From the NCBI GenBank assembly GCA_051362555.1, contig CM120642.1, positions 5,084,001 to 5,148,000 on the forward strand: a stretch of DNA of 64,000 bases, read 5' to 3'. Each line of letters opens with the position of its first letter. Position 1 is the stretch's first letter. A program made the translations under genes and the position numbers. Origin of the DNA: Lingula anatina (taxonomy: Eukaryota > Animalia > Brachiopoda). Positions 857-63,493 of this stretch are shown piece after piece. The notes beneath the pieces are model-generated. The model saw only the letters and a list, made by a program, of their open reading frames with translations, was not told the origin of the DNA and ran no database searches.

Positions 857-889
857 AGTCTATCAAACACCTCAAGAAGTATGTCATAC

Positions 890-7919: not shown

Positions 7920-7980
7920 CAATGAGAAAAATTTTGAAGAACCAGTCCAGTCTTGGTGTGAACCACAACTAAGAGTCAAC

Positions 7981-10900: not shown

Positions 10901-11407
10901 TAAAATATACTAATCTGGTTTCAGGTAAGCATAATCTACACATGATCCTGGGTTTAAAAAAAAAAACTCCGATAATTTACTGTGGGACCAACACCTACAG
11001 GCCTGGGGTTTACTTTCAAAAATGGATGAAAAGTCATGGAATACCACGATTCCAAGGAAAACCTCATGCCTGGCAATCATAGTGTTATCCTTTTTTAAAA
11101 TTATGGATGTATGCATTTACTTGTTTCATATTAATAATGGAATACCTTTTCCTCGAGTCTTCCACTAGCTAAAAGTACCAATCAAAAAGTACTACAAAAC
11201 ACATGCAGAACAAATTAAAAATCCAAGTTTCCTACCTTAAAGCGATTTTCAAATAACTACTCATGTGTGTCACTACTAGTACACAAAAAAAAAACAACAA
11301 AACTTTGGATTCAGTGTATAAATTTTTTAAGGAAGAAAGAAAACATAGATACTGTTAAATTGATATTTTACCTCAGATTAAGTGTATGAAGGTGGTTGAT
11401 CACTCAT
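7981..11407 (-). pseudogene. MS4A/CD20-like gene copy B, probable recent pseudogene (exons 11407-11372, 10846-10559, 10198-9939 + 8338-7981)
   Basis: Exon 1 reads ATG AGT GAT CAA CCA CCT TCA TAC ACT TAA, where copy A has GAA. The TM exon (ITCGILAVILWIVGIAIG..GTGIWCGVPFIIAGGVGVGAAKKKTTCLLVSHMMLSI..) is split by a 1.6-kb insertion. Removing it restores EEINFCLKDSGYYESY...LLLIIAFLEAVVALISSALTCRGTCC in frame (206 codons including the stop). Confidence 0.88.
8343..9938. mobile_element. Non-autonomous Kolobok-like DNA transposon
   Basis: TTAA duplicated at 8339-8342 and 9939-9942. TIRs ggggtctaggatattaa / ttaatatccaagatccc (15/17 match). A TTAA TSD with 5'-RR..YY-3' ends is the Kolobok signature, whereas piggyBac has 5'-YY..RR-3'. 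No intact transposase ORF. Confidence 0.85.
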
Positions 11408-13131: not shown

Positions 13132-13934
13132 GCAGATGCATGTACTAATAGAAAGAGTAAATGTAAAAAATTATAAATTTTCTATAATGTCAATGGGTTG
13201 TTTCAACACAAAAGTGTTTTATACATACTGTTGATGGAAAGAAGAATATGTGCACATTAAATTTCACAAAACATAGGGCAATGCATCACTAAGTAATCTG
13301 GAATTTTGAGTGGCAATTTATTGTCAGCTCACAGAAGACAATAGTATATACTTAATATTTACATGAATATGCCATGATTTACTATATCTTTTTATCTCAC
13401 CTACAATTATTTCTTCTAGATGAAAACTTAAATGTAATTTGGGTAGGTGACCAGAATTATAATTAGCATACATGTAGATCACTCAATAAATAATAAAAAA
13501 CATTTCATTGATGCACATTAGTGCAGAATTTCTATTTGACTAAATGAGCAAAAATGTTCAATAGCTTGGTTGTTGGATCATAAGTAAAAATTATCAAACA
13601 CAAGCTAAAAAAACTCATACGGTTAGCATTTTCCATCAGACTGATGAAGGCCGTATGTCCAGGTTGGCCGTAAGCTAAGGGTATGAAGGTTTTTCAGCTT
13701 ATGTTTCATAATTGCCATGTATGTTCTATTTGACTAGTTAAACATTCACCCTGATAAAAGAACTCTATCAATGTGTGGTGGTGTTTCCCATTCATACATA
13801 CTACATTGGTCCTTCCTAAGAAAAACTGTTACAGTGATTTTGGTATTGGCAAAAAGACAAGATTTTTTTTTCAAAATAGTAAAGACAAATACTAATAACA
13901 CATGGCAAATATATGGATATTTTTGTGTTCCTAA

Positions 13935-14040
13935 TCATAGTCTTTGTCCTTTGTTTTGTCACGTGGGCATCATCTCACATTCTCATTTCATAGTCTTTGT
14001 CCTTTGTTTTGTCACGTGGGCATCATCTCACATTCTCATT
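13935..14040. repeat. Perfect 53-bp tandem duplication
   Basis: tcatagtctttgtcctttgttttgtcacgtgggcatcatctcacattctcatt x2, followed by an (ATT)n microsatellite at about 14056-14092. Confidence 0.9.
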
Positions 14041-14054
14041 GGTCATGTTATCTC

Positions 14055-14091
<37 letters not shown>

Positions 14092-14907
14092 GATCTTACA
14101 ATTATTATAGTTATTGATAATTATATAGTCGTACATTATACTTGAGTAGCTACAGGTATGCTTCTTCTTCTTTATCACTGTGGTATCTTTTTACAGAAAA
14201 CATGTATTTATAATTTGTGTTCTTTCATTACAAATATACATCTATAAATATACACATCATTATCATCATCATCTTACACACACGCACGCACACACACACA
14301 CACACACACTTCTTTAATTCTAAAACCCTGCATATTTACATACACTACATATGATTTAAGAAAAGCTCTAAAAAATAAAACAATATAAACCCTTCACAAA
14401 GATTATCACAGACTGGGCTGGAATTATGCATCATCACTTTTCACACCTGAGTTTACAGGGAAAAAGTCAAACGGAAGGTGTGCTATGTATACACACACTT
14501 TCACAGCATAAAAAAAAAACATTCAAACAGGTGTTCAGCACTTCAAACTTGGACAATAAACTAATGTCCAAAGCCAGCAGTTTCAGACTTCAACAAAACT
14601 AGTCTCCAAATAGTTGCTCTAATAACTGAAAAAGGTTCTGCTATAATTGTATATACAGTTAGTATTGTAACTTTTTGCTGGAAGTATTGATGTGACAGTC
14701 TTAATTACATACTGTACATTTATTACTGGCATACATTCAATACCTGAAAGCAAATATATAAATGGGATTGCATGTTCTTTTTACACTGAAAATGTTAGAT
14801 TGATTTATCAAAGAGTTTAAGGTATTCTATATAGGATTTTTGCACCAAATTAAATACAAAATTAATTATAATTCAATTAAACTCCGGAGGGGGGGGGGGG
14901 GGGGAAT

Positions 14908-15489
14908 TCAACTTATTCTGGCACTCTCTTGGTAATGCGTGGTTGTGATCATGTTGGTAGTGGCGACGGAGTTTCCAGGGCGTATGTAGTGAACAGTGCC
15001 CCCGCCAGGGATCATCTGCACTTGATGTGTATTTGCGGTGTAGAAGACTTGACCCCCTACTGGAGAGGAGCCGCAGCAGGTGGTACGGCAACACAAAGCA
15101 GCAGAAATGATGGCCACAACAGACTCTACCAGAGAGATAATAATCAGGACAGCATGGATGAAGTTGTGACCCCCAAGCTGAGGCTGCTCGCACTCTTTCT
15201 TGACGGTCCAAATCCAGAAGTAAGAGTTGGTGCAGTGTTCATCTTCTTCCAATGCTGCTCCAATGCTATGAATGACCAGCAAGGGCAAGGAGATTAAACT
15301 GGAAAAGATGGAGAAGATCATGTGGGACACTATCATGGCTGTCTTCTTCTCTCTCCCTACTGCTATGCCTAGACTTCCAGCTATGGTGTAGAAAATGCCT
15401 GCTGTGATTCCCATGCCCACGACACCCAGAGCAGCATCAGAGGCACTTGCAGCAATGCCCAGGATTATGGACATTATTCCAGCAACCAA
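14908..15489 (-). CDS. MS4A/CD20-like gene copy C, last exon (four TM helices, Cys cluster, C-tail)
   Basis: tttcag acceptor; LVAGIMSIILGIA..GMGITAGIFYTIAGSLGIAVG..MIVSHMIFSIFSSLIS..HAVLIIISLVESVVAIISAALCCRTTCC matches the CD20/MS4A four-TM pattern; TGA at 14908. Spliced product is 315 aa. Confidence 0.9.
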   Translation of the reverse strand: MVAGIMSIILGIAASASDAALGVVGMGITAGIFYTIAGSLGIAVGREKKTAMIVSHMIFSIFSSLISLPLLVIHSIGAALEEDEHCTNSYFWIWTVKKECEQPQLGGHNFIHAVLIIISLVESVVAIISAALCCRTTCCGSSPVGGQVFYTANTHQVQMIPGGGTVHYIRPGNSVATTNMITTTHYQESARIS

Positions 15490-15830
15490 CTGAAATAAAA
15501 GACAAATGTTCCAGTTAGTAAATAAATAAGATACTTAAATCTATCTTTGCACAAGGTACCATAAATATAAAAGAAGTAGAACAGACAGACAGCTTGAGGA
15601 ATATTTTTTGACATATATCTTTCGATTTTTATTTTCAGAATCCTGCCCTTATATCATATTCATGTACAGGGGTACTAACAATTATAAGCAATAAATAAAC
15701 CCCTGCAGGCAAATAACCATATTACATACACACACATAAACTCACGCACCAATCAATGCACGCTAAACATGTTGAAAAGTTTAATCTTTGTAATGTACAA
15801 GCTCAGTTTTATTATTATTATTATTATTAC

Positions 15831-16124
15831 CTGTAGAACAGCACACCTCTGAGCTGAGTCACTGGCCCAGCCTGCTCTTTCCCCTGGTCTCACTGGTGGC
15901 GGCTGCCGTGGTTGAGGCTGTTGAATGATCACAACAGGTTGGGTAGGCAAGGCTGGTGTTATCACCTGTTGGCCTTGCATGTAGTAGCCTGTCTGCTGAC
16001 CATATGGCTGTCTGTAATACTGACCACCAAACTGACCCCCATACCCTGGCTGCGGTGGTGGTGGTGGCTGTGGTGGTGGTCCATGCACTGATGCAAATGC
16101 AGGCGGCTGTGCAATAGGTGGGGG
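15831..16124 (-). CDS. MS4A/CD20-like gene copy C, coding exon 2 (Pro/Gln/Gly/Tyr-rich)
   Basis: tatcag acceptor and gtaata donor, 98 codons PPPIAQPPAF...GWASDSAQRCAVLQ, phase 0 on both sides. Confidence 0.88.
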
Positions 16125-16354
16125 CTGATAATTGATAAGATTATATATCAGTTTGGGTACTGGTGCAATGTATATACATATGTTGGTACTTTTGGCTGAA
16201 AAGCTTAAACAAAACAGATACAGTGTATACAGTATATCTTCAACTTACCCATTGTAGTGAAAAGGAAACATGAACTAACTACAGACATACTGACAAGTCC
16301 AATTCTTTTTAAATATCTATACAGTGATTGTCTTCAAAGTGGTTTATTTTTTAC

Positions 16355-16426
16355 CTGGGTATATCCCCCTGCTGAATATGCTGGCGGGTCGTCAGACGGA
16401 CCAGCGGCAGATTTTTCAAATTCCAT
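16355..16426 (-). CDS. MS4A/CD20-like gene copy C, first coding exon (MEFEKSAAGPSDDPPAYSAGGYTQ)
   Basis: aaaATGG start, 24 codons, cag|gtaaaa donor; acceptor tttcag at 16451. Confidence 0.8.
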
Positions 16427-16904
16427 TTTTTTAACTTTAAATATTTGTGTCTGAAATATAGTAAAAATGCATTCGATATTTTTATTTGCATGACAAAAAA
16501 ATTGGAAGCTAAATAAAAAACTAACAAATTGTGTAAATTCATATATGAGCACGCACGCAATCACTAACTCTCTCACGCACCAAGGAGCAGTAACTTTTTT
16601 GACGTTCTTGTAAAACTTTTATAGATCCTATATACAATGGTTTTGAAATATAAACTTGTAATCAATACTGAATTTTGTTAGATCTAGATTGGATTTTGTG
16701 GCATAATAAATCTAATTACGTCATTCACGTTAAATTTTTTTCTCATTCTCAAGGTTAGGATAAGCTTAATAAATGTTGTTAATTTAGACTTCAGAAATTT
16801 AGCAGCAATACAGAACTTTATCTTTTGAAAAAAAAACCTACAAATAAAAGTATAAACAACTGACAGCATGTAGTAAATTTGCGTTTTTTGATGTTGAAAA
16901 TTAC

Positions 16905-38836: not shown

Positions 38837-39069
38837 TCAATTGCCCTCTTCCTCTTCCTCGCCTTCTTCCTCCTGTCCGCTATCTACTCCATTTTCTTCT
38901 TCCTCCTCATCCTCCTCATCACCATCTAGTTCCACAATATCATCATCATCACCCGCATTTTCAGTTTTTTCTTTGTCCTCATCTGCTGCTTCTGAGGACG
39001 CATTCAATTCTTTTTCTTTCTTTCGCTTTTCTGCAGCATCTTTTTTATTTTTCTGTTCTTTCCTGAATG
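38837..39069 (-). CDS. POLE3: DNA polymerase epsilon subunit 3 / CHRAC17, last exon (basic patch then acidic tail)
   Basis: tttag acceptor, phase 1, (A)FRKEQKNKKDAAEKRKKEK...EEEEEGN-stop, the typical POLE3 C-terminus. Spliced product is 167 aa. Confidence 0.93.
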
Positions 39070-39312
39070 CTAAATTTAAAAAAGGAAAATGTTCAATATT
39101 GGACAAAATGAATACCTTAACGTTAAGATATCTTAACACAAAGCTGGTTGATAAAAAAGAAAAGGATAATATTGTGCAGGACAAGGCAATTGTTTTTACC
39201 TAATTAAGTACTTTCTTCTGTGTTTGACATTATTTATGGTATTATTTATTGTGTATTTCATAAACAAATTCTACTTTTACAAATGGATACTTTGGAGATC
39301 AAGATATTGCAC

Positions 39313-41093: not shown

Positions 41094-41165
41094 ATGAGCA
41101 GCTCGGAGGAGGTGTCATGGATCTCTTGGTTTTGTGGACTTAGAGGCAATGAATTCTTCTGTGAG
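41094..41165 (+). CDS. CSNK2B: Casein kinase II beta subunit, coding exon 1
   Basis: [24 protein letters not shown], the conserved CK2-beta N-terminus; acceptor at 41085, gtaaat donor. Confidence 0.98.
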
Positions 41166-41328: not shown

Positions 41329-41431
41329 GTTGATGAGGATTATATTCAAGACAAATTTAACTTGACAGGGCTGAATGAACAGGTGCCCCACTATAGACAG
41401 GCTCTGGACATGATCCTGGACCTAGAGCCAG
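41329..41431 (+). CDS. CSNK2B: CK2-beta coding exon 2
   Basis: [34 protein letters not shown]; AG/GT borders. Confidence 0.98.
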
Positions 41432-41681: not shown

Positions 41682-41797
41682 ATGATGAATTAGAAGACAA
41701 TCCAGGTACTAGTGATCTCATAGAGCAAGCTGCAGAGATGTTGTACGGACTCATACATGCCAGATATATCATGACAAATAGAGGAATAGCACAAATG
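41682..41797 (+). CDS. CSNK2B: CK2-beta coding exon 3
   Basis: [39 protein letters not shown], including the acidic loop; AG/GT borders. Confidence 0.98.
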
Positions 41798-42453
41798 GTG
41801 AGGAACTGTGCTTTCTAGTAATATAATGACTAATCAAAGCATAGCAAAAAGGGGTTAATGTTTTATGTAGCATTAGAAGTTAAAGGGATAATAACTCTTC
41901 GTATGAGATCTATATTTCACAATAAAAACCTTGTGAATAACTCACAGAAATATAATATATTCTGTTTTACCACAAAAACAGCAGTTATAGCTATTATTCT
42001 GATATCTGAGCTTGTCTTTAGACCACGTGACCTCCATTGAAGGCTATACTCTGTTAAAATCTCTTAAGAGATTTTAACAAAAAACCAAACTTTTTAGAAA
42101 AAAACCAGGGACTAACTTTGAATGTAAAAATGGATTCATTAACCATTGGTAAGTATGGGAAAATTGTTGTTTACTCCAGGAAAATTCATTTTTTGGCCGA
42201 AACGAAGAGTTATTATCCCTTTAATAGGTCACTTCAGGATTGTAGGAGTCTTTTGTTTGTGTGTTAGAGATGATTACGAAATTGGTTGTGTGTGATAAAA
42301 GATATTTTTGTGTGAAGATAAGCACTTGGAGGAAATTCACCAATTTTATTCCGTTCTCTTTACAATCATATACATCTGTGGTGCAAGCGAATTCATTGAG
42401 GTACCGATTTTTATGGCACAGTATGTTCAAATGGCAAAATATCCTTGTTTCAG

Positions 42454-42529
42454 ATTGAGAAATGGCAGCAGGGAGACTTTGGCTACTGTCCCAGGGTGTA
42501 TTGTGAAAATCAACCCATGTTACCAATAG
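42454..42529 (+). CDS. CSNK2B: CK2-beta coding exon 4
   Basis: [25 protein letters not shown], first half of the zinc ribbon; AG/GT borders. Confidence 0.98.
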
Positions 42530-43202: not shown

Positions 43203-43392
43203 GTTTATCAGATGTTCCAGGTGAGGCTATGGTAAAACTATACTGTCCAAAATGCCAAGATGTCTACACACCGAAGTCATCGCGGCACCATCACACCGAT
43301 GGCGCCTACTTTGGTACGGGGTTCCCACACATGTTATTCATGGTGCACCCAGAATACAGGCCGAAGAGACCAGCCAACCAATTTGTACCCAG
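43203..43392 (+). CDS. CSNK2B: CK2-beta coding exon 5
   Basis: [65 protein letters not shown]|gtatgt, ending in phase 2. Confidence 0.98.
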
Positions 43393-44559: not shown

Positions 44560-46028
44560 TTATTAGTACCACCAGCGTGTACGCTGGCGGTACTCATGGT
44601 TTTAGTCCCGACCCGTCTCGTCCGGCTCCGCCGGCTCTGCCAGCTCCGTTGGCTCCGCCGGCTCCACGTACTGGCGCCGGATACAAGTCACCGTTACCGC
44701 TTCTCCTCCTAGACCGCAATGACCCCTGTCCCCATCTCTTGGATTTAGGTCACATATAACCTCAACTTGAACCCCCAGGTTTTTTTGTCTCAGTCGGTAC
44801 ATTGACCTGGGCGTGCACTCCTTGAAATGCACCCTTGTCAAAATTTTTGAAAATTCAATGCCAATTATCTACCCTACGGAAGGAATTATGGGAAAATTTT
44901 CTACAGACGGCTATCCAAAAGTCATATGTGTAGATTTCAAATATGCCCTTGGATTTGACCTTTGACCTTTATTTCAAGGTCAAACGGGCCAAAATTTTCA
45001 AAAAAATGAAATTTTTTACGAAAAAAAATATTATTTGCACTGTTATTCAGACACTACACAGACTTAACCAATAATTATATTGGAAAGGGTTACCCTTTGG
45101 GTCATCTTTCATCTCTGTGAATTTGGGGTCAATCAGTGCATTTTCACAGGAGTAGCGGCCATAAAATACCGAAAATGAAAACTGTCTCTAATTCGGGAAC
45201 CGTTAATGCTAGCGACCCGTTCTTTTTTGCATTTTGTAGAGCATGTAAAGCCCAACACTGAGAGTGGTCTCCGTTTTTTTGTATTTCATACGGTTTTCAT
45301 GTTATGCTGTATTAAAAAGTACTTTGTGGTGGCACATTTTTGTAACTCAGAATTGTAACATTTAGTCCCTTATATCTCCAAAACTGGCAGAGATAGGTCA
45401 ATAGTTATTATTTAAGTTGAATAGGAAGTCATTTACTTGCAATCTAGAAGTGAGCTTGAAATTGACCTTTGACCTACTTTTCACCATGAACTGAACTTTG
45501 CAAATTTTTGTTCCCTTTTATCTCCAAAACTGGCAGAGATAGGTCAATAGTTACTATTGAACTTGAATAGGAAGTCACATACTAGCAATTTAACAGTGAC
45601 CTTAAAATTGACCTTTGACCTACTTTTCACCATGAACTGAGCTTTGCATATTTTCTTGCCTCTCATATCTTTAAATCTAGCAGAGATGTGCCCATTGTTT
45701 CCCCTAGGTTTTCTCTTTTGTCAGCATATATGCACCATTGACAACACATTTCAAGGAAAACCAATAGGCCTTTTGTCTAGAGAATACAGTAGTGAGCAAG
45801 GGTAGGAAAATGCAAGTCAATTTGAAAATCTGCTTGATTGTATCATTTTTAGTTATATTTTTTGCATATTTTGAGAACTCTTGTTGATTGCATCTTATAG
45901 AGCTTGTCAAACACCAGACTGGTGATGGTGTCCCTTTTAGGAGGGGGGGGGGGGGTCCATACGAATGCGCTTACTCCAGCTGGTGGTACAATATCTGGAG
46001 GCGGTATCGCCTCTCTGATCCTCTAGTT
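44560..46028 (+). mobile_element. Helentron-associated non-autonomous element (HINE/DINE-1-like) in the last CK2-beta intron
   Basis: 5' tt, subTIR gtaccaccagc (44566-44576) within a 5' hairpin (44565-44594), ccggctccg microsatellite, internal ~146-bp tandem repeats, 3' subTIR gctggtggtac (45979-45989), hairpin gaggcg-gtat-cgcctc (45998-46013), end ctagtt. Confidence 0.8.
45361..45690. repeat. ~146-bp tandem repeat, about 2.3 copies, inside the HINE-like element
   Basis: tatctccaaaactggcagagataggtcaatagtta at 45373 and 45519, partial at about 45666; each unit has ttgacctttgacctacttttcaccatgaactga. Confidence 0.9.
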
Positions 46029-47806
46029 TAGAAGACAATTTATTTAGAAATTCTCTCAGCTTGAGGTCATACAATTTTATGATCCTGCCAGATGTAATAT
46101 TGAACTGACTGCAAATTTCCAAGCCTGTATTTGCTGGATTGATCGTGTGAAAAAATCTTTGATGACCTCCCTGTCCAAAAATAGAAAGTAAAATGAAAAT
46201 TAGTTTATGAAGTTAAGCAGAATATTGTAAGCTCCTAATACACTCCCCCCAGGGTGACCCCCCACCCCCACCCCCACCCCCACTTTATCAATCTGTATAT
46301 TTTATCTACAGTCTGTTTGACCAGAATATTGATTGTAATGGGTCCTGTCTCACAAAAGAATTTAAGTTAAAGTTGTTTGAAGCTAAGCCTGCTTAGAATT
46401 TGTAGCCAACAACATTTCACTAAAAATCTTAAAAGATGTTTACTTTATTTTTTTAAAAGTTTACTCACACTGGTGACTAGAGCCTATGAAGGGATGATAG
46501 CTGAATATTGTGTGGACAAAATGTTTATGAAATGCTTGAAGACAGTGTGAAGTTGGGGTTCTCCAGTTGGCTATCCAAGTTAAGCAGTCTTAGAAAATCC
46601 AAAAGCCTAAGTTCTTTATTGAGACAAGTTTAGTTCCACAAAAGGAGTTTAGACAGACAGTTGGTCTAAACTGGGTGATTGAATATTTTAGTCTACTTCC
46701 ATTTAGGAGAAATTCATACTAGTCCACTGAAGAAGAAACTTCAGATTTGAAACCCATTTAGAACTATTTAAAAAAACTAGTGGGTGCAATATCACATATG
46801 AGTGGACTATGACTGATTGATCTCAAATAAAAGTAGACGTTAATTTTGGTCTTAAAGTTTAGAACAATTTTTAGTCTGTAGTTCTTTTGTAGAACTGCCC
46901 TATCATCATCTTGGTCTTTTTTATAATATTTTTGTATGTGCATGGTATCGGTGAAGGGCTCTCCTTATCCAGCTGACTGAATAGTAGTGGTCTTTTATTT
47001 TAGAAACCCTCTTCTATATGGACATTGAAATACCATACAGCTGTTTCTGACCATTAAAATCCACTAGCACTTGAAACCAACAATATATCCAAAGCATCTT
47101 CAAAATAAATCGCCCTGGAAATGTGTCGGGTTTAAGTCCAAAATTTAAATTTAAATAATTTGGTATGAAATGAAACTTTTTTGAAAGACCTAACTTTGTA
47201 CTGTATTTATGTTATGGACATGAACATCTATATTTTAAATTATATTTTCCTTTCTTTGCTGCTTGGAAAGTGAAGTTTTTTATAGTTTATCAAAATTGAT
47301 TAACAGAATTTGGCTTGAGGACTGATTGAAATTATACTGCTGAGTAAAGAAGCATGTGTTGCTTCAAATGGATTTCTTTAAAAAATATCTTGTATACATT
47401 TGGCTTGAGTATTTGGAGGAAAGATGATACTGCGGCTGTTGTTTTTTGAAGTGCTCTTCCAGAAATTGTCATGAGGGGGATGGTTGGTTGGCACACACAA
47501 AAAAAAAAAAAAAGAAAGAAAAAAGAAAAATTGTCAGGAAAAATATACTCATGCAAGTTTTTAAGTCATCCATGTGAAAGCCCTAATGCAAAGCTGAAAT
47601 CTTACAAACTCACAGGTTGGCTTCTCCAATACTGTAGAAATGTAAAGGGCATGTTTTAGCCACTGAAAAAATGATAAAGTTTACAAGGGAAAGGGAACTG
47701 CTAGACAGTTTCAGTATTGCCAGCCAGCCACCAGTTTCCCCTCCATGTGTGTAAAAGACTGTTTTTGGATCGGCAAGTGATTGGTGTTCTTCCTATATCA
47801 TTGTAG

Positions 47807-47912
47807 GCTGTATGGGTTCAAGATCCATCCCCTGGCTTATCAGCTTCAGTATCAGGCAGCAGTTAACTTCAAACTACCCATGCGGGGAATGTACAACAAC
47901 GGCAAACGCTAA
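47807..47912 (+). CDS. CSNK2B: CK2-beta last coding exon, proximal variant (220-aa isoform)
   Basis: ttgtag acceptor, phase 2; (R)[37 protein letters not shown]. Confidence 0.95.
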
Positions 47913-48066
47913 CCACCACCACCACCACCACCACCACCCATGTCAATGTATCTCCTAATTTCTACTACTACAACTACAACTAGCATCCTATGGGAAGTAC
48001 TTACTACTACTACTACTACTACTACTATTACTACTGCAACTACTACTACTACTATTGCAACTACTA
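47913..48066. repeat. (CCA)n and (ACT)n trinucleotide tracts at the start of the CK2-beta 3' UTR
   Basis: ccaccacca.. at 47913-47938 and actactact.. at about 48003-48066. Confidence 0.85.
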
Positions 48067-49175
48067 CATGTATTCTGTTGATGCACATGTTTCAGAGCTT
48101 TGTACTTCAGTGTGTTCTATTATTGTTTTTTATGCTGGCATTATATGGCACATAGCATATGTTTAGACAGGAGCAGGAATTGAATGCATTTTGTCCTGTT
48201 CTGCAAGACTTTGTTTAATGCTGCAGCATGTGTTGCCTTTTGTTAAAATGCAGAAGTTGCTGGAAAATATGACTGAGTTATTACCAAGCATACTATAGCT
48301 GGGTTTAAAACTAGTATAAAAGTTTCTGGTACATGTGTGGGTAATGACATCAGTTCTGTGCATAGTTATTAATGGACTGACCAGAAATGTGAATTAGCCA
48401 CAAATATCTGTGAATATTTAACTTGAAAAAAAAAAAAAAAAAAAAGGGAAAAGAAACTCACTGCAGCGTTGGCAGAGTGCAGTGTGCGTAAATGATAAGC
48501 ACACTTCAATATACGCAGCTTTTACCGAACAAGAGAACAATTTTGCAAGCTTTTGTTGTCTTAAGTTGCTGTTATTGCTCGCGTCAATTAAACATCGCAG
48601 TCCAGATGCTTCATTACTAGAATGGGTAAAATTGTCACTTTGGTCATTATTTAGATCAATATTTATGTTGCACTTGACTTACAACACCCAAAAAAGGCCT
48701 TGTCTTTAACAAAATTACATGGGGGAAGAACAGTTGTTAGCAGTGGCTTAACAGAAGACATAATAATGATAATAAACATACTGATGCCCCTAAAAACTGA
48801 CTTCATACAACACCTAGTTCTGGTGTGATTGATGGCTTAATTGCAATCTAACGTATGCAACACTGCCAAATGCTAAATGTGCTTAATTAAAGCCTCAGTT
48901 GAGGATTCCAAGGACAGTGAGGGGCCTTTTCACATCGAGCTCTCTAACTTTGCGTTTCATCTTCAGAAATCTGTTTTGAGAGGTGTTGCTATGTAATAAT
49001 GCTACAAGGTAATTCACTCGCTTCTTGTTGTTTGGGTTTGAAAAATTATACCTGAGGCATATGTTTTTTAATATAACAAAGTGTAAATATGCAGGAAAAT
49101 AATCAAAAGGTCAGTGGAAAGAAATTAGCTGCTGTTTGTTTATTGGCAGGGTAGAGAAGGGAAGTTTTGTCTTGG

Positions 49176-49206
<31 letters not shown>

Positions 49207-49665
49207 GCATGATAGCTGGTCTATTATGCTGCTGATCTTTCATAATAGAAATCTGATGAGGGAATGCTTAAATAGGGCACTTGATGTGAAAAGGCATTAA
49301 CATACTATAAGGATTTGGAAACAAGAAATCTTGTCAAAACACTGTGCACCATATTACTAGTAAACAAGGTATTTTATGGTTCAGCAGGATAAATTTTAAC
49401 CTTTTCAGTATTTTGAATATAAAAAAAACAGCTGATATTACCAATTATCCCATTTGATTATCATTTGTATTAATTTTTATTTTATTATTTTATCTAAGTT
49501 ACACATAATCTATTTATTCAGTTTTTAAATCAGAATGAAAAAGAGGCATTATACTTCAAAATGCAGCTTGTGTCACCTAATTTATGAATTAATCCATTGT
49601 TTTATTATTTAAATACAATGTCATTGTATTTTTTTGACATAAAGTCACTCAAAAGATGACACATT

Positions 49666-49711
<46 letters not shown>

Positions 49712-52636
49712 TCTGCCAAACATTTAGTTTATTTCTTACTTCATCTCCAAATAGTTAAGGTAATTTTGATAACAAGTTTCCTAATATTTCTTATGTTTTG
49801 ATTCCTTTGTTGATAAATACTTGGGTTTACTGCTTTGAACATTTCATATATAAGAGCCAAATCAAAGGAAAACAATTAGAATTGTGAAGAGATTAAAAGG
49901 CTGTGAATGAAATATTTACATCTATGTACATTTTGTTTTGTGTCATTAAATGTATCCCATCTGGAAATTAATCATTTTCTATTAATTTAATAAAATTATT
50001 GTCAAGATCTCTAATTTTGCCAGCAAATGAATTATACTAAGTTATATATATATTTTATCAGATAAAACGTGCTATCACCCTTTTTTCATAAGAGTTTTTT
50101 ACTTTATTTTTAAAATGTCATTCATTTAAAAAAATGAAGCAACAGTTTTATAACTTGATTATGTAAGTTTACTCTTTTATAGGCAGGTCTCTGAAATTAT
50201 TGAAAAATTTGTTACTGATAAGGTAATACTTGTTGCAGGTAAATGTTTTTTTTTAATGTAGCATACTGAATAAAGATGGGCCTTTTAGATTGCTGTCAAA
50301 AAATTTGGGCTCTACAATATTCAGACCATGAATAATGTAAAAGGTCTTCATAAAGTAGATGTTGTATTGGGTTGAGGTCTGCCTTAAATAATGGTAAGTT
50401 TATACACGTATAATGTTGTTCAAATTAAAGCATTTAAGTCCTGGAGAGAGAAAGTAGAATTTTGACCCTTTGTTGTGAAAGTTAGTTTTATTGGTTATAT
50501 CTTTTTAATTTTATTTTATTAAAATACATTGTTTATGGCTATGTCGTCAAAGGGAAGAAGAAACATGATATATGGTAGTTAGTGTTGGTCCATCCAGTAT
50601 TAGATATATGTATTTAAGAAACTTTTCATATTATATGGCATTCCACTTTGGTAACATAATCACATTTGTGTCTTGAATTCAACAATAAAGTGTATAAAGT
50701 AATAGTGTGTTGAGAATTAAAGTTAAGATGATTACTGATTACTCAGTCCACACATCCTAAGAAACTGTTTCTAATGTACTAGTATAATCACCAGGTTCTC
50801 TGTGTTCTACTAAATGCCAGGAGGCAGCTTTTTAGTCAGTAAATGGATTGCAGTCAGCGAGAATCCCTGACATAACTCGTTCTGAAGTGTCCTCAAGAAA
50901 ATAGAGATGCTTAAAAAAAAGACATGCCCTATTCATTCTAGGAGAAAATTTTTGTTATCTTGATTTAGCTTAATTTTGTTTTTGACTTAGAGGAAATTGA
51001 AAGAGAAAAGACAAAGAAAAAGCCAGTAATGTGGCAGATCTTTTGCCCTCAAGGCTGTCTGTGACATGATATTATGCAAGAGAGAGGAAAATATTTTAAA
51101 TTTCTGGGTTTTGGGCAGCTTTAAGAATCTCGCTTGTTGAAAACACGTCAGTAACGATCTGACAAAGGAGACTTCCTTTTGTATAGAATTTGACTTCGTA
51201 TAATTGAAAATAAGGTACGGTAATTACATTATTCGGACATCAGGATTTTTTAAATGTCCCCCCCCCCCCCAAATGTTTTGTTACACCTTATAATGCAGAT
51301 TCAAAAGCTTTAAAAAGTTATTTGGCTTCATATTAGAAAATGCATTGTTTGTCTGAAAATGATAAATTTTGAAGATTTAGGACTTTATATAAAGTGGGAG
51401 CATTTGGAAATTTTACATCCAAGTAATTACCACATATAGCAGTAAAATACTAAGGTTGATGTTTAACTGTTTTTAAACTAATCTGACTTAATCTGCCACG
51501 GATATGGGTTTTGTTTTATAGATAATAAAATTAACATTGAGTAGGTCTTTAGTACTACATGAACTGGCGTGTTGAATAAAGATTTTAATCTCAAAAGACA
51601 AAATGAATTGGACACTAAGTTTGAAAAATCAGATAAGGAAGTGGTGTCGGAAGGATCTGCAATAACATGTCAGTGTCCTTTATGATATAGCTGTAACATG
51701 ATTATGTGTGACATGTATTATTCTATGACTCTAAGTAATAAGTAAACATTAAACTTTGTGAACTGTTTTTTAGTTGTTGTTCTTTTGATTACCATAATGG
51801 TGAGTGACAGGCAAAATTGACGATGTAAAAATTGACCCCTTGGAAAGATTGATGTAAAAATATTAATTCAAAAACTATGATTGTGGATTAAAAAATTTAT
51901 TGTTAATTTTTGGGTATCAGTCTAAATTATCATGAAATACAGAAATTAACTAGGGTTTAACTTTAATGCCACTGTTATTTTGTAATTTAAATTTCCTCCA
52001 CATTAACATCAGTAGCAACTTGCCATATCTGCTTTGGTGTGGTTTTGCAATTTTATCAGTCATTTTTTGAGGATTTTTCTTTTTCTTTGTGAAAGTGGCT
52101 GGATTTTGTAGGAAAAAAAAACGATTACAAGTACAGGGAATTCATGATAGGGAGGGCATTTTCCTCCTTTTTTATGCTCATCACTTTAATATTTCTGAAA
52201 TTTAAAAAGGTGAATGGTCAAAACTATTGAATGTGGTTGTATACATGTTTTCTTGCATGCCTTTTGCCTGTCAGAAGATAAATTCTTCAGCTGTGATATG
52301 TACTAAGAATAAAGCAGTGATTCTGCCTCAATCAACTAATGTTGAAATTTTTGTTTACCTCCAATATTTTGAAGTCTGTCTAGAGCATCTTCACCAGGGA
52401 ATCAGCAAAACAATTTCAGCATTGGTTGTTGATTGAAGAAAAATCACTACTTAATTCTCTTGGTAGTGAGTTTTTTTAATTCTCTTGGCAGTGAGTTTTG
52501 ATATATATTGACATCAAGCACTCTAATCTGTCTCTATTATTTAAAAGTGTGATATTAAATGGTGTTTAAAAGTTGGTATGCAGAGTTTTCTTTTAAGTGG
52601 CTGTTTCTAATCGCATCTTGTCTTTTCTTTTTGCAG

Positions 52637-52757
52637 ACTGTATGGCTTCAAGGTGCACCCCCTGGCCTACGAGTTGCAGTATGCGGCTGCCGCACGGACG
52701 CGCTCATCTGGAATGTCGAGACCAAGAACATCTGCCAGGTCGCCAGTCTACAAATAG
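52637..52757 (+). CDS. CSNK2B: CK2-beta last coding exon, distal duplicated variant (225-aa isoform)
   Basis: Branch-like ttctaat, polypyrimidine tract and ttgcag acceptor in the same phase 2; (R)LYGFKVHPLAYELQYAAAARTRSSGMSRPRTSARSPVYK-TAG. Differences from the proximal exon over the homologous part are mostly synonymous. Confidence 0.88.
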
Positions 52758-54243
52758 GGACCCCAATCCAGCCTTTGTATTTGTATGCCTTTTGCTTCTA
52801 CTACTGCTAGCATGGAGCGGGCAGTCTTTGCCTTGCCCAGCCATAGATTCTTGTAACAAGCTCTCAGCAGTCAGCAAAGGAGTTTTTTTTTTTTTGTTGA
52901 TAAAGAAACTAAAACATTTTCCCATTCAGACCTGTCAACTCTTTATTCTATTTTCAATGACAATTTCAATATTTACTGAGTTGCTCACTCTCCAAAATTG
53001 CATTTTTGATATGTTTTATTTCTTAAGCAGCTGCTTGGTGATGTAAACATCTCTAAATATGGCTGTAAGTTGATTAATTTTGCTGAGGCTTTTTACAAGA
53101 ATTTTCTGCTTGCCTTTTCAAACCCAAAATGCAGGATGTTTGGCGATCTCATATTCACCATTCATATGTAGAAGTCTTAATCAAGGATATGTGTCTTCAG
53201 TGGGAATTACCCGAGATAACCCTAAAGTTAGCATAAAATCAAGCAAGATTGAGTGCGATGTGGAGGGGGGGGGGGGGGGGGGTCAGAAATAACGGCAGAC
53301 TAAGGAGTGCAGTACACCAACAAATAAAAACTGACAATTTTTTTCAACAGATATTTTTCTGTTAGTTTTCCAAGTTCCATTCAATTGCACAACAATGCAC
53401 AATAGCCTTGTTGCTTTCTAAGAAGACATCCCTGTATGTGGAATTTCACCCTTATCACTAAAAAAAGTTAACCCAACTTAATGTGGAATCTTGCACATTT
53501 TCGCATCTCATATGACAACACGATGTGGAGGACCTAGTTTTAGGCTGTCTCGGATGATTTCCATTTCATTGCGCGAAAAGGTGATTTTTTCTCTCCTCAA
53601 CAATAATATCTGTCAAAGTGGGGGCTAAGGTAGAACTTAGTGTGATAATTTTTTAGGAGTGTCATAAAACACTTTCCTCTCCCCTGGGTCATGCTGTCCT
53701 TAGTTGTTTCAGCTATTTTTAGTAGTCACAGTTATGAGTTTCCAACACACGGAAAACTTCAGATGAAGTTCAGTGACAAATAGTAAATTTGTTTTACATC
53801 AATTCTTATACATCTTGGTGCTGGTAAACAATATTGATTTGAGCTGGGTATTAGAATAAACATGATTTCTCTATTGAAGATTTCAAAATTAATTCTGAAA
53901 GTACTAGTTACATCTGTTGCACTGCTTATTATCCTTATGGGTGAAGGTCCTGGGTGAATGTGAGTCAACAAGTGAAATGGATCCAAAAATTGATTTAACA
54001 AAACAATATTGCCTTGAGCTTCAGATGGTTTGGGTCCCTAATAAAATCTTCTTTTGCCTTTCCTCTCTCAGGGAATGGTAGGTTCTCTTTAATAGAACAT
54101 TGATTGAATAAAACTACTAAGAAGAGGTTTTTTTTTACTAGTAAAACTAGGATTGGCTGAAATTTGACTAGAGTTTTCATGGAGATATCAGGGTGTAAGA
54201 GTGGATTCAGGTCAAGTTGATCTGCAGACAAACAAATCCCCGT

Positions 54244-54420: not shown

Positions 54421-57400
54421 GTAGTGGGTCGGCCGTATTCTGAATGCACTCAAAGAATACCCTTTACTTCATCTAAAAACGTTTGTCTTTTATTATAAGA
54501 TTTGAATTAGTTTTTCATGTTTGAAGTGGTTATTTCATGTACAGTAGATGAAAGGGTGCATCCTTTTGATTTCATTTTCCTTTTCTCTGTGCATTTTAAT
54601 GCATCTGCTGGTAATTAACAGTTAGATGATTTAGTATTTTTTAAAATTTCCTTTGCATCTTACTGTATATTTGCAGAGAGACTTTACATGGTATGACAGT
54701 ATGATTGCTTTTTGTTAGGAGAATTTTCTTGTGCTTGCAATGCTTCAAAAATCAATGGTTGCTTAAATATCTTGGATAAGAAGCATGGTTGTTGCCTGAA
54801 CATTTATACATTTTTCAAATTGTTTAATTTGGTGTTTAGTTAGTATTCAAACGAAGGAAGATTTGAGCAGAAATTTTCCTCCTTTGGGAGGAGATTTCTT
54901 TCTTTTTATGCTGAACAGAATAAAATCTCCTGAATCTCCCCCCCCCCCCAAAAAAAAAAATAAAAATAAAATAAATCAAATAATAAAAATTAAATAAATA
55001 AAAGGGAGGTTATGTGAGTGGTAGGGTTTCTCATTTGGTAGCATACTGTTTTCTCATTCCAGGGTAAAAAAAATTACAGATTGAATGAGAGTTATTATGA
55101 TGTTTTTAGTGAGGCAGATGAAATAAGTCTTAGTGGCATATTGTGACCGGCCAAAGTGAGAGGGGACATGAGAGAAATGTCTGCTCTCCTTAGCTTTCAT
55201 AATATCTCCATAAAAACATGCATATAATTGCCATGTAAAATCAAACCAGTATTTAACAAATTACTGAAACGTATGCTGTACTGAATTCTTACATACAAAT
55301 GCTTTCTCTTTTGTACAGGGTGGTCCCTAAAAACGACCCATTTTACTTTCCATCTCAATTTTGATACAATTAAGATGTTTCCATCTTTCTTTTACCAAAT
55401 TGTGTCATAAGGACGACCATTCTACCCTTGCAAATTCTACAGAAATTGGAAACCTATCAGGCTATTTTTTGGATGTTAAAATGTTTCTTATTGACTGTTG
55501 TTGTCATGCAAACTGATGAAGACAGAATGCTTGAAGGAATTGTGCAAACCACACAGCTAATATGGTTCAGTAATATATTATTTGAACACTTTTAATCAGA
55601 AGAGCCCCTGTCTACATACGAATGTAACATGATTTTATTGTGGCAAGCTGTAATGCCCAACCTTTTTTCTTGAATTTCTCTTTTTATTCTTTTTCAGTCT
55701 ACTTGGCTTCCAAAAGATGAAAATTCCAAAATGAACAAAAACCACAACAGTTGGAAAAAGTCAGGGACAAAAAAGGACTTCAGTTTGCAGTTGCTTGCAT
55801 TCAGGTGGCTTGTTTATAATACACCAAAAAATACAACAGTAACGGAATTTAGGTGTATATCTACAGAATACATATATATGACATGTTAATTTAACTTTCT
55901 GCGTGGCTGTGACCATAAAACCAACAAAAGGAACATAAATGGATGGAGTTGCTCTGAATAAGTGACTAACTCTGCTTAAAAATGGTAAAAAATACACGTG
56001 AAATGAGACTTTGACTTTGTAATAGAAGATGTAGCTTAAATAAGTTAGAACCAGGACGGTTTTGTGAGCGAACAAATGTCAAGAATTAATTAATGTGAAA
56101 TAACAAGGGGTGTTACGAGGCCTGTCGACTTGTACATTTTCACATATTTCATTTATTACAGAGCATTTTGTAAAAATTATTTGTTTAAGGTAATGGTTTT
56201 CTCCACAAATTATTGTAAAGGCTTTATTTGGTAACTTGCCTTTTTATTTTTTTGAATAGCAATAAGATCAGAGTTAACAAGTAATACGTATTTTGGTAGC
56301 GGTCAAGGCATGGCTGAGTAATTATTTTCATTCAGATTTTTTTCTGCTTTGTGTCACGGTGGAAACCATGCCAATATTGAAGTTTTTTTTTTTTTCAAAA
56401 ACGCTATTTACATGTCTTTAAAAAGGACAATAATGACGGTCAAATTAATGTCGAAACGACTTCTGGAGTGTTGTGATTCTTGGGTTAAATTCTTACCTAA
56501 CCTAACCTCATCGCTTCTCTTGTGTTGGCTAAAACTGCTAATTCTGTTGAATCTATCAAAGGTTTCAAGAACACCAAGTGGAGGAAGATGATACTTAAAT
56601 AGATGAGTAAAAATGTTTTAAGAAGATGATATCGTTGTATTTTAGTGGTCATTTGAGACCCCCTTCGTTGGTGAGATCCAATATTTTATCATCATCATGA
56701 CATATTGAAGCATGTTGAGAACAACATCTGTGCTGACGCTCTGTCACTCCAAAGTTTAGATTTTGCCGACTGCCTGTTGAACAATTTAATTTGGGACAGA
56801 ATTAAACGTGGGATTTTAGCGCTTTAGTTCGCGGGAAATAGCAATTGCATGACGTCATTGGCAGTTTTCTGGTACTAATTGCACTCTCTTGAGGCTGAAA
56901 CTCACAAGCAAAAGTAAACATGATACTTCTTTAGACCAGTATGTGAATGGCTCTCATGAAAAGGCATTTTTGAACACACTTGTCAATTATATTGTGATTT
57001 TATTAAAAGCGACAAAATTCCTACTTAATGGTCCAATACGTATATGATCGTCATAGCGGCAACGAAGCCGTTTCTATAATTATCCGGAATTACTTTGTGA
57101 GTGCTTTATAAGGTAAATAATTTGCCGCCCTAGGATTGCAGTAAAATTTTATCATCATGCTGGAAGTACAATTACGTCTGTGCAGACAGTGTGGGATGCC
57201 TCCCTTAAAGTCTTGACTGATTCACTTCCTAAATTTTACTACACCGATTAATTTGTAATAATATGTATATTGCTCGCTTAAAAGCCCAAGCTTATTTCTA
57301 ACCGTAAAGTGCTGCTGTCGCCACGGATCAAGAAAGAGAGGGTGAAGGTGGGTGGAAACAGCAGAGCCTGAAGTCGTTGACCAATGGAAATCATTTGATG

Positions 57401-61339: not shown

Positions 61340-62032
61340 CTCCTTTACAGTGACATTGTACAGCATTCGGCAAGTAGGGGCTGTTTGGTCCGCTATGAGT
61401 TTTACTTTACTGCTGTATCATCGGATATTCAGTTATTCATTTTCACTTATGTAGCACTTTCATTGTTCGCAATTACATGTGCATCACTTTATGCCCATTT
61501 GTTATGTGAGGTGCAGATACAATGGCAACTTACTGAGCAAGACTAGTATGGGCATTATAAGTGGGTGATAATTCATCGTAACAATTAAGGTTTGCATCTG
61601 AATTTGACAAGCTTTGCATGTAGCTCACACATTTATCTTCATTTATTATTTCAAAAAGATTGTTATGCATCCAAAATGATGCCGAAAATTATAAGAAAAT
61701 CCACCTGCAGAGTACACATGTAAAAGAAAAAAATCCGGTCTTTCGTATGTCGGACATAGTAGCCCACAGTAGAACTATACTAAGTGTGTGTGAACATACA
61801 GGTGGTGCGAGATATAAGGGACGTCACACTCAAAACACACACACACACACGGACACACACACACACACACACACACAATTTTGACTGTATTACAAGTGAA
61901 ACCGTTTTTAACACGAGGTACCATACATGTATTTTAATTATCTATACTATGCAGTATTTTGCTGTAAGATCAGACTTAAAGAAACCCATAATCTGGGAAA
62001 TAATCTCATAGGTTGATTGATTACTTTTCCAG

Positions 62033-63493
62033 GACCTTCACAATGAAATCGAGGAACTGCGTGAAGATTTGTTGCAGGCAGAGATTATCATAAAGACTCT
62101 GAGAGAAAAGTTAAGAAAACAGAAACATGGAACGCAACAACTCGTTGTCGCCTGGAAAACAAAGCTTCGAGATCTAGAACGCGAAACGAAGCAAAAAGAA
62201 CAAATGCGCGAAAAACAATTACAAAATATAACGTCCAGTCTTTATTATTTGGAAGGACAGCTAAGGAAAGAGAAAAAAGAAATTGAGCTTTTATTGCAAG
62301 AAAAGGATAGGACTATCGAAAACCAAAGGCAGACGATTGAAAAATTAAAGCAAGAATGCGACACGAACCAAACTGCTTTGCAATGGAAAGAAAGCCAGGG
62401 TAAATATAATAATAATGAGAGAGAGCGGGAAATATTTAGCCGACGTAAGGAAAATGATTCTCCTGCAATGAAAATTAGGCCAAGCTATGCAAGGGAAACA
62501 AGCTTGGAGAACAAAACTGAAAAGGCCAAGCTGCCGGGTTCTTCCACCAAAACACCCGTTCCTTTAAGTGGGAAAGATGTTAGCTGGCAGGCCACCGAGA
62601 TGCAGCAAAAAACAGCGATGTTCCAAGCAGCAGATCACGATTATTCACATCAAAATGTACGCGGAGATACCTGGTTGGAAAAACCGTACGATGAAAGACG
62701 CCAATATGGCCATTATGACCATTATCAGGAGACATTCCACCAAAATGTGGGCGTACAAAAAGAGAATCAGTCTCCAAAAGAATCAAAATACTTGAAGGAA
62801 CATCCTGCAAAAATTTCAAGAGAGAGTCCAAGATTTCAGATTCCTTCTTCTGAGAACACACGTGATCCTTCTGGCAAGAGACGGGGAGAAATTAAAGAGT
62901 GTTACACCACCAACAGAAGCAATGCCAAGCAATATGCGCGCAGCTCACAAGACATGAACTATCATTTAGCAAAAGATTATGGTCTGAACCTTGAACATCG
63001 CGATATCTCATCGCAGAGCTGCAGTTCCCCGAAGGTGCGGGTAAGCGAGAGTCCGACGTCTCCACCAAGTCCACATCCGCCCTGGGGTGCGGTGTCCGTT
63101 AATCCGGCGCCCAGTAATCCGATACCACGGAGAACGGTTTCTGGGACTTTTCCAGGGCTCGACCCACGGATGTCGCCTCTACAGGTCTACAACAGAGACG
63201 GTTCACCAAGGTGGTCTCATCAAAGTACCCAGTCTTCATCAGTCTATTACGATGACAATGATACCAGTAGCTCCTCAAATAGCAGTTACGAGAATGTGTT
63301 CTCGTCCCCTGGGGTCTATGACCCAGTGTATTCATGGAACGACCAGGACGGTGAGGAGGGAGAGAAAGAAGGAGCTGCGTGGAAGAGAAAAGCTGCGTCC
63401 TTGCCCGCGCACCCGACCGGAGCGTTAGAGAGAAAAGGGACACCTGCCCACAGAACAGCGTCTTGTTATTCACAGGGGTATGAGCAAAAATGA
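62033..63493 (+). CDS. Uncharacterised protein: N-terminal coiled coil followed by a long disordered Ser/Pro-rich region (about 496 aa with exon 1)
   Basis: 1.46-kb stop-free frame after a ttttccag acceptor; heptad-like DLHNEIEELREDLLQAE...IEKLKQEC. A possible donor gtatga at about 63478 means the gene may continue past the apparent stop. Confidence 0.85.
   Translation, partial: DLHNEIEELREDLLQAEIIIKTLREKLRKQKHGTQQLVVAWKTKLRDLERETKQKEQMREKQLQNITSSLYYLEGQLRKEKKEIELLLQEKDRTIENQRQTIEKLKQECDTNQTALQWKESQGKYNNNEREREIFSRRKENDSPAMKIRPSYARETSLENKTEKAKLPGSSTKTPVPLSGKDVSWQATEMQQKTAMFQAADHDYSHQNVRGDTWLEKPYDERRQYGHYDHYQETFHQNVGVQKENQSPKESKYLKEHPAKISRESPRFQIPSSENTRDPSGKRRGEIKECYTTNRSNAKQYARSSQDMNYHLAKDYGLNLEHRDISSQSCSSPKVRVSESPTSPPSPHPPWGAVSVNPAPSNPIPRRTVSGTFPGLDPRMSPLQVYNRDGSPRWSHQSTQSSSVYYDDNDTSSSSNSSYENVFSSPGVYDPVYSWNDQDGEEGEKEGAAWKRKAASLPAHPTGALERKGTPAHRTASCYSQGYEQK

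What the first reader, a model, noticed from the sequence alone, without database searches (positions are those of the whole stretch)
47807..52757. CK2-beta has a tandemly duplicated alternative last exon that swaps its regulatory C-tail
Seen: about 4.8 kb after the normal last exon ([35 protein letters not shown]) lies a second exon with a clean acceptor in the same phase 2 (RLYGFKVHPLAYELQYAAAARTRSSGMSRPRTSARSPVYK*). It is invisible in the ORF track. 13 of the first 15 exon-encoded residues are identical while many third codon positions differ, which points to an old duplication under purifying selection rather than a dead copy. Known: RLYGFKIH is the hairpin that docks CK2-beta onto CK2-alpha; the vertebrate tail ends ..NFKSPVKTIR with the CDK1 site S209; Drosophila CK2-beta has alternative C-terminal isoforms. 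Inference: both isoforms can form holoenzyme, but the proximal tail lacks the SP site (NFKLPMR) while the distal tail is Arg/Ser-rich and carries SPVYK. Poly(A)/splice choice could therefore toggle cell-cycle phosphorylation or localisation of CK2.
Basis: partly seen in the sequence, partly recalled or inferred. Interest (0 to 1): 0.85.

Follow-up and report, generated by a model that had tools for sequence, protein, structure and literature searches.

The report
CK2-beta gene swaps three regulatory tails
In this invertebrate, the gene for the regulatory subunit of the kinase CK2 splices to either of two duplicated exons, one of which can continue into a further exon, so its RNAs encode three different tails behind the same docking hairpin in sample-dependent proportions, which likely tunes how the kinase assembles or is regulated.

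Summary
Confirmed and extended. Both exon-6 copies exist as described, and RNA reads join exon 5 to each: proximal 19 and 16 reads in two runs, distal 17-29 reads in four runs. The shared 19 codons show purifying selection (dN/dS about 0.1).

The distal copy is not a last exon. It splices to a further exon at 55698 through two donors, before or after its stop, so three proteins are encoded (220, 225, 231 aa). Exon and donor use differ strongly between studies. The exon at 55698 starts like a third, decayed copy.

The proximal tail is the common protostome/vertebrate type. The distal Arg/Ser tail resembles the tail of acoel CK2-beta and of unnamed animals that carry it alone, so it may be ancient (moderate support). 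The CDK1-toggle idea is weak: the SP is not at the S209 position and one distal isoform loses it.

No second genome with both exons was found among the few informative loci. Tail isoforms are known in Drosophila and duplicated C-terminal exons are a known class. The scan had not noted this in CK2-beta before.

The parts
41094..41165 (+). CK2-beta first coding exon (from the ATG)
   Evidence: translation; GT..AG joint to 41329 in 4 of 4 runs
41329..41431 (+). CK2-beta coding exon 2
   Evidence: joints
41682..41797 (+). CK2-beta coding exon 3
   Evidence: joints
42454..42529 (+). CK2-beta coding exon 4
   Evidence: joints
43203..43392 (+). CK2-beta coding exon 5; its phase-2 donor at 43392 feeds both exon-6 copies
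   Evidence: its last 30 nt are the loose ends seen before 47805 and 52634
47807..47912 (+). Exon 6P, proximal copy: hairpin plus NFK-x-P..NNGKR tail (common protostome/vertebrate type), 220-aa isoform; 3' end of the RNA unresolved
   Evidence: 19 and 16 junction reads in X1 and X3, none listed in X6 or X9; tail type
52637..52738 (+). Exon 6D, distal copy, short form: internal phase-2 donor at 52738 removes the SPVYK end and continues into exon 7 (231-aa isoform)
   Evidence: joint 52738>55698: X1 1, X3 0, X4 20, X6 8, X7 23, X8 22, X9 22 reads
52637..52782 (+). Exon 6D, long form: Arg/Ser tail ending SPVYK, stop at 52755-52757, donor 25 nt after the stop (225-aa isoform)
   Evidence: joint 52782>55698: X1 27, X3 20, X4 19, X6 7, X7 5, X8 0 (+5 with a variant base), X9 0 (+2)
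55698..56450 (+). Exon 7, terminal exon (end approximate, by depth). Coding 55698-55734 in the short-donor isoform (55696-55731 reads SLLGFQKMKIPK), pure 3' UTR in the long-donor isoform; its start resembles a third, decayed copy of exon 6
   Evidence: joints and depth; 3 of 725 acceptor-like AG sites in the window score >=16 against the hairpin start, and they are 6P, 6D and this one

Best explanation
The CK2-beta gene splices exon 5 to either of two tandem copies of exon 6, and the distal copy continues through one of two donors into a further exon, so its RNAs encode three tails behind the same CK2-alpha docking hairpin, which likely all form holoenzyme and likely differ in how the tail controls kinase assembly and partner binding. 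Shown: the exons, both exon-5 junctions, both distal donors, sample-dependent use, and selection on the shared 19 codons. Inferred: (a) exclusivity comes from a choice between ending the RNA after 6P and skipping to 6D, since 6P has a stop and no onward joint was listed; (b) the long-donor RNA escapes nonsense-mediated decay because its stop is only 25 nt before the last junction (50-55 nt rule, recalled); (c) the tails change regulation. The proximal 16 residues have no Ser/Thr, whereas the distal 21 have 6 Lys/Arg, 7 Ser/Thr and two R-x-x-S/T motifs, so distal tails would be open to basophilic kinases and to electrostatic contact with acidic CK2 surfaces in holoenzyme filaments or rings.
For: Junction reads. 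Proximal:distal acceptor use is 35:37 in study P1 against none listed:49 in X6+X9. Short:long donor use is 1:47 (P1), 28:26 (P2), 67:12 (P3); Fisher p 5e-9 and 7e-5 for neighbouring pairs. dN/dS about 0.1. The three read variants seen in distal coding sequence (52661, 52682, 55699) are all synonymous, while X9 shows more than 20 listed differences in the exon-7 UTR. The hairpin 186-193 with hot spots Tyr188 and Phe190 (PMC9608649, passages) is intact in both copies. The two distal changes occur in other animals' standard-type tails: Val192 in Macrostomum and Spirometra, Glu198 in Helobdella. In Drosophila, CK2-beta tail isoforms are non-redundant in vivo, and the tail affects filament/ring formation and can compete with ATP (review PMC5374408, section 8).
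Against: There are no protein-level data. Samples are coded, so tissue or stage control is not shown. P3 reads differ from the window at many fixed positions, so part of the donor shift may be strain or species rather than regulation. Only 7 of 9 listed runs were laid, at 6-30% of each, and junction counts are tens of reads. The proximal 3' end was not found. No other genome with both full copies was seen: 0 of 11 genomic loci with >=5 kb downstream (8 distinct tails), none known to be a close relative. The 12 members of the Octopus/bivalve cluster all have the proximal-type tail. CK2-beta tails vary widely among animals, so some tail variation may be neutral.
Confidence: 0.72

Rival explanations
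1. Tolerated redundancy: only the docking hairpin is selected, the tails after residue 204 are interchangeable, and isoform ratios follow general splicing or polyadenylation differences or strain polymorphism.
For: Measured selection covers only codons 1-19. Tails vary freely in length and sequence across animals. Truncated upstream copies of this exon occur in two other loci (L075, L080), so the exon duplicates readily. P3 is a diverged strain or species.
Against: The distal tail matches a conserved tail family in register: mean score 28.9 against 12 Arg/Ser tails, shuffles 11.8+-3.4, 0 of 2000 reach it; the proximal tail scores -5.3. The read variants seen are synonymous only. Acceptor use shifts between P1 and P2, both close to the window sequence. 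Drosophila tails are non-redundant.
Confidence: 0.17
2. One reading: exon choice toggles a CDK1 site (SPVYK), restoring the cell-cycle phosphorylation that vertebrate S209 provides.
For: The proximal tail has no Ser/Thr at all, and the long distal tail has the only SP. S209 phosphorylation is described as a Cdc2/cyclin B mark in human cells (PMC4466633, passages). One unnamed tail type ends in a similar S-P-M-F (P0308, P0261). The short donor removes exactly this motif.
Against: The SP is not at the S209 position, has no basic +3 residue (consensus recalled), and is missing from the 12 Arg/Ser tails aligned.
Confidence: 0.1
3. The distal exon is a dead copy, transcriptional noise or an assembly artefact.
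For: None found.
Against: It is the major spliced form in most runs, has canonical junctions on both sides and dN/dS about 0.1, and is expressed in three studies.
Confidence: 0.01

Closest known systems
Drosophila CK2-beta isoforms VIIa, VIIb, VIIc, VIId, VII-VI (review PMC5374408, passages and section 8; primary paper not seen)
   Same: One CK2-beta gene gives several proteins that share the core and differ in the C-terminal tail.
   Different: The review describes about 15-20 unique residues appended to the tail and does not mention exon duplication in the parts read. Here the switch is upstream of the hairpin, and the hairpin-coding exon itself is duplicated. The 2016 review says this complexity had not been described in other metazoans.
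Tandem duplicated exon substitutions (PMC9741552, passages: 77 of 236 human events swap a C-terminal region; most are ancient; convergent cases occur)
   Same: Homologous tandem exons used as alternatives, conserved functional residues, diverged disordered tails.
   Different: CSNK2B has 0 mentions in that main text and none in the one held supplement of PMC8373072. Here an alternative donor and a probable third copy are layered on top.
Human CK2-beta (PDB 1JWH chain C, 215 aa)
   Same: Hairpin 186-193 aligns to both copies; the proximal tail keeps the N-F-K-x-P register.
   Different: The proximal tail has Leu where human has S209; the distal tail is unrelated after residue 204.
Acoel CK2-beta (Symsagittifera roscoffensis XP_063725947.1; Convolutriloba macropyga XP_075248664.1)
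   Same: Arg/Ser-rich tail with R-T-R-S-S near its start and a terminal Y-K, like exon 6D.
   Different: It is the only tail seen in their cluster (4 full-length members of 6), has no SP, and their gene structure was not examined.
Lepidopteran CK2-beta isoforms (e.g. Cydia, Papilio, Spodoptera)
   Same: Two endings per group, one ending I-P-K like the short-donor isoform here (13 of 350 fetched proteins, all moths or butterflies).
   Different: They branch near the end of the proximal-type tail; the match is only 3-4 residues, so this is a lead and homology is not shown.

Membership tests
CK2-beta regulatory subunit | Conserved core (N-terminal MSSSEE, zinc-finger cysteines) and similarity to named CK2-beta proteins | tested here: met
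   Residues 1-185 are 98% identical to Sinanodonta, Nucella and Octopus CK2-beta
CK2-beta regulatory subunit | C-terminal hairpin 186-193 with Tyr188 and Phe190 | tested here: met
   Present in 6P and 6D; hot spots from PMC9608649
CK2-beta regulatory subunit | Forms alpha2-beta2 holoenzyme | not tested
   No CK2-alpha sequence was in hand; inferred from the intact hairpin
Tandem duplicated exon substitution | Two homologous exons in tandem, same phase | tested here: met
   E=5e-13, both phase 2
Tandem duplicated exon substitution | Both exons expressed, spliced as alternatives | tested here: met
   Exon 5 joins each; no 6P>6D joint listed (short reads only)
Tandem duplicated exon substitution | Both exons conserved in related species | tested here: inconclusive
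   Kept in the diverged P3 samples; 0 of 11 informative metagenome loci have both; no related genome available
Tandem duplicated exon substitution | Tissue-specific use and protein-level support | not testable with these tools
   Sample identities are coded; no proteomics
Alternative last exon pair | Each exon is terminal with its own poly(A) site | tested here: not met
   6D splices onward to 55698; the 6P end is unresolved
Vertebrate CDK1-regulated CK2-beta tail (S209) | Ser-Pro at the position of residue 209 | tested here: not met
   6P has Leu-Pro and 6D has Ser-Ser there

The most novel reading that the evidence does not exclude
The distal exon is a survivor of the ancestral animal CK2-beta tail, the Arg/Ser..(Y/F)K type that acoels and some unnamed animals carry alone. 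It is kept in tandem with the NFK-type tail used by protostomes and vertebrates. This gene would then record an early-bilaterian exon duplication that most lineages resolved by losing one copy, with a third decayed copy recycled as the terminal exon, and this animal would switch CK2 between the old and new regulatory tails.
Probability: 0.4. Interest if true: 0.68.

Novelty: new variant of a known kind. Interest (0 to 1): 0.47.

Why it matters
CK2 is constitutively active, and how it is regulated is an open question. The beta-subunit tail is one candidate lever: it affects filament and ring assembly and can compete with ATP (review PMC5374408). Natural tail isoforms were described only in Drosophila as of that 2016 review. 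This gene offers three naturally used tails on an otherwise identical protein, a clean comparison for testing what the tail does. If the distal tail is homologous to the acoel type, it also dates a switch in CK2-beta tail type in early animal evolution. The event class itself (duplicated C-terminal exons) is well known, and no function is shown here.

Tried and rejected
No genome is held for the window, so copy number elsewhere and related genomes could not be checked. The run search listed no RNA holder by index; all runs came by species label.

In the first read lay the exon-5 junctions were not listed, because reads are cut at the T-run after 43392. The second lay left exon 5 out so that its sequence showed as loose ends. 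Direct exon 5 > exon 7 splicing and onward splicing of 6P were not listed; rows need 3 reads and 14 loose-end rows were not shown.

A homologue search with the distal exon alone found nothing (10 candidates, none at E<=10). Double hits in Choristoneura and Leptosia (P0001-P0003) are fused whole-gene repeats with the same tail type, not exon duplicates. My first tail-similarity test included three residues of the shared core and was inflated, so one search replaces it. In one search the unbiased set (87 tails found with the proximal query) gives only weak support: best global score reached by 22 of 1000 shuffles, best local score by 340 of 1000. The stronger values (2 and 24 of 1000 among 224 tails; 0 of 2000 for the 12-tail mean) use tails found with a profile that contained the distal exon, so they are partly circular.

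Cluster look-ups for ten Arg/Ser-like tails gave no organism names. The tree of CK2-beta cores had 4 of 31 branches starred and does not place the window or the unnamed Arg/Ser-type protein. The clade is unresolved: the core is closest to molluscs but no named echinoderm was in the set, and a neighbouring CD20-family gene scores best with an echinoderm cluster (0.93). No other exon of the gene is duplicated in the window. No fold or complex job was run: the tails are short and low in complexity, and the alpha/beta pair is a solved structure.

Ten paper searches listed no report of a duplicated CK2-beta exon; subscription papers are not covered. Earlier scan notes: nothing by sequence or place, one analogue by words.
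Full report
OBSERVATION. The window holds a CK2-beta gene on the + strand with coding exons at 41094-41165, 41329-41431, 41682-41797, 42454-42529 and 43203-43392; all four introns are seen as GT..AG joints in 4 of 4 RNA runs. Exon 5 ends in phase 2. Two downstream exons continue it in frame: 6P at 47807-47912 and 6D at 52637-52757. They share 13 of the first 15 exon-encoded residues. One finds the other at E=5e-13 in the window, the next hit being at E=0.3. Over codons 1-19 pS is 0.64 and pN 0.126 (dN/dS about 0.10, Fisher p=0.0013). After codon 19 only 8 of 48 bases match, and the flanks are unrelated. This is an old duplication with the shared part under purifying selection.

EXPRESSION. Nine RNA runs of the same species label were listed; I laid seven, at 6-30% of each. 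With exon 5 left outside the target, its last 30 bases appear as loose ends before the 6P acceptor in X1 (19 reads) and X3 (16), and before the 6D acceptor in X1 (17), X3 (20), X6 (20) and X9 (29). None is listed before 6P in X6 or X9 (14 rows not shown). Depth agrees: the bin with 6P has 3.4, 0, 0.7 and 0.4 in X1, X4, X7, X8, against 10.3, 13.3, 12.0 and 10.6 for the bin with 6D. So 6D is the usual exon, and 6P reaches about half only in study P1. Sample identities are coded, so I can say sample-dependent, not tissue-specific.

6D is not a last exon. It splices to an exon at 55698 from two donors: 52738, inside the coding part, and 52782, 25 nt after the stop. Short:long joint counts are X1 1:27, X3 0:20 (P1); X4 20:19, X6 8:7 (P2); X7 23:5, X8 22:5, X9 22:2 (P3; the X8 and X9 long joints carry a variant base). 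The gene thus encodes proteins of 220 aa (6P), 225 aa (6D long, ending SPVYK) and 231 aa (6D short, ending in the 12 residues read from 55696-55731, SLLGFQKMKIPK). P3 reads carry many fixed differences from the window, so its donor preference could be genetic. In those reads the variants seen in distal coding sequence (52661, 52682, 55699) are all synonymous, while more than 20 differences are listed in the exon-7 UTR (99 rows not shown). The start of exon 7 resembles the hairpin in the same phase: of 725 acceptor-like AG sites on both strands, 3 score 16 or more against it, namely 6P, 6D and exon 7 (5 of 7011 for all AG). This was noticed after the fact, but it suggests a third, decayed copy that has lost Tyr188. 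Direct exon 5 > exon 7 splicing was not listed. The 3' end of the 6P RNA is unresolved: reads are cut at the repeat 47901-48067, depth drops from about 16x to a patchy 0-4x that runs to about 51.5 kb in X1 and X3, and no onward joint is listed.

RELATIVES. The 6P tail (N-F-K-x-P..N-G-K-R) is the common type in molluscs, arthropods and tapeworms, and it keeps the register of human N206-F-K-S209-P with Leu at 209. The 6D tail resembles a second family: the acoels Symsagittifera and Convolutriloba and about ten unnamed proteins, which run A-x-x-(K/R)-(S/T)-R-S..R-x-R-S..(Y/F)-K. With the shared core removed, the 6D tail scores 28.9 on average against 12 such tails (shuffles 11.8+-3.4; 0 of 2000; 6P tail -5.3), but those tails were picked by eye or by a profile containing 6D. 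In the unbiased set of 87 tails the best global score is reached by 22 of 1000 shuffles and the best local score by 340 of 1000. Homology is therefore plausible, not proven; Arg/Ser tails can converge.

A metagenome scan kept the best 80 of 119 confirmed loci. I classed 59 as genomic; 11 have 5 kb or more downstream (8 distinct tails), and none has two full copies. In L001 and L003 an Arg/Ser exon is the only exon 6 seen (L001: 57-base intron after exon 5 and 10 kb downstream without a copy; L003: 1.9 kb downstream). Their compact genes recall sponges, which is my recollection and was not tested. L080 has one truncated upstream copy and L075 two, so this exon duplicates repeatedly. The window's clade is unresolved: the core is 98% identical to molluscan proteins, no named echinoderm was in the comparison, and a neighbouring CD20-family gene is nearest an echinoderm cluster.

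MECHANISM. Shown: three spliced RNA forms in sample-dependent ratios. Inferred: 6P is used when the transcript ends before 6D, otherwise exon 5 skips to 6D; the long-donor RNA avoids nonsense-mediated decay because its stop lies within 50 nt of the last junction (rule recalled). All three proteins keep hairpin 186-193 with the hot spots Tyr188 and Phe190 (PMC9608649, passages), and the two 6D changes (Val192, Glu198) occur in standard-type tails of Macrostomum, Spirometra and Helobdella, so all likely bind CK2-alpha. They differ from residue 205: 16 residues without Ser/Thr (6P); 21 residues with 6 Lys/Arg, 7 Ser/Thr, two R-x-x-S/T motifs and one SP (6D long); or 15 of those followed by 12 from exon 7. 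In Drosophila such tails are non-redundant in rescue tests, and the tail affects filament/ring formation and can occupy the ATP site (review PMC5374408, passages and section 8). I therefore favour tuning of higher-order assembly and partner binding, adjustable by phosphorylation of the Arg/Ser tail (0.72 for functional tail swapping overall; the specific route is untested). Rivals are neutral redundancy (0.17), the CDK1 toggle (0.10) and artefact (0.01). S209 is described as a Cdc2/cyclin B site in human cells (PMC4466633, passages), but the SP here is at a different position, lacks the +3 basic residue (consensus recalled) and is not shared by the 12 aligned Arg/Ser tails.

COMPARISON AND NOVELTY. 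It works like the Drosophila tail isoforms, and it meets the tested criteria of a tandem duplicated exon substitution, a known and often ancient class in which 77 of 236 human events are C-terminal (PMC9741552, passages; CSNK2B not mentioned there, nor in the one held supplement of PMC8373072). Conservation in relatives is inconclusive. It fails as a simple alternative-last-exon pair and as an S209-type tail. Ten literature searches listed no duplicated CK2-beta exon. PMC4883820 (passages) only cites a mussel CK2 cloning paper, which I did not see; the primary Drosophila paper was also not seen and may describe exon structure more like this one. Verdict: real, expressed, more complex than first read; a new variant of a known kind; interest 0.47. 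The ancient-tail reading has probability about 0.4.

Noticed in passing
proteins P0011 vs P0072/P0077 (Octopus): Octopus CK2-beta isoforms carry two different versions of the exon-3 segment (acidic loop region), suggesting a duplicated, mutually exclusive exon 3 in that lineage. The window has a single exon 3.
   Followed up: partly
proteins P0098-P0111, P0144, P0211 (Lepidoptera): 13 of 350 fetched proteins end in I-P-K, all from moths and butterflies, by an alternative ending after the proximal-type tail; the window's short-donor isoform ends the same way.
   Followed up: partly
L080:2493-2531; L075:2445-2653: Truncated upstream copies of CK2-beta exon 6 with in-frame stops after 11-12 codons: one in L080 with its own AG acceptor, two in tandem in L075.
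   Followed up: partly
window 845-16618, - strand: Tandem array of CD20/MS4A-family genes with Gln/Pro/Gly-rich repeats.
   Followed up: partly
window 41880-42225 and 44560-46030: Intronic stretches with very high read depth and mixed loose ends, i.e. dispersed repeats transcribed elsewhere in the genome.
   Followed up: no
window 62021-63493, + strand: 490-aa open frame with a coiled-coil-like start; nearest Atlas clusters are unnamed (0.93-0.94), no Pfam family.
   Followed up: partly
window 38837-39199, - strand: Basic-then-acidic open frame about 2 kb upstream of CK2-beta on the opposite strand, likely an exon of a divergent neighbour.
   Followed up: no
runs X7-X9 (study P3): Reads differ from the window at many fixed positions (122 of 298 reads only 90-95% alike in X9), so these samples are a diverged strain or a related species under the same label.
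   Followed up: partly
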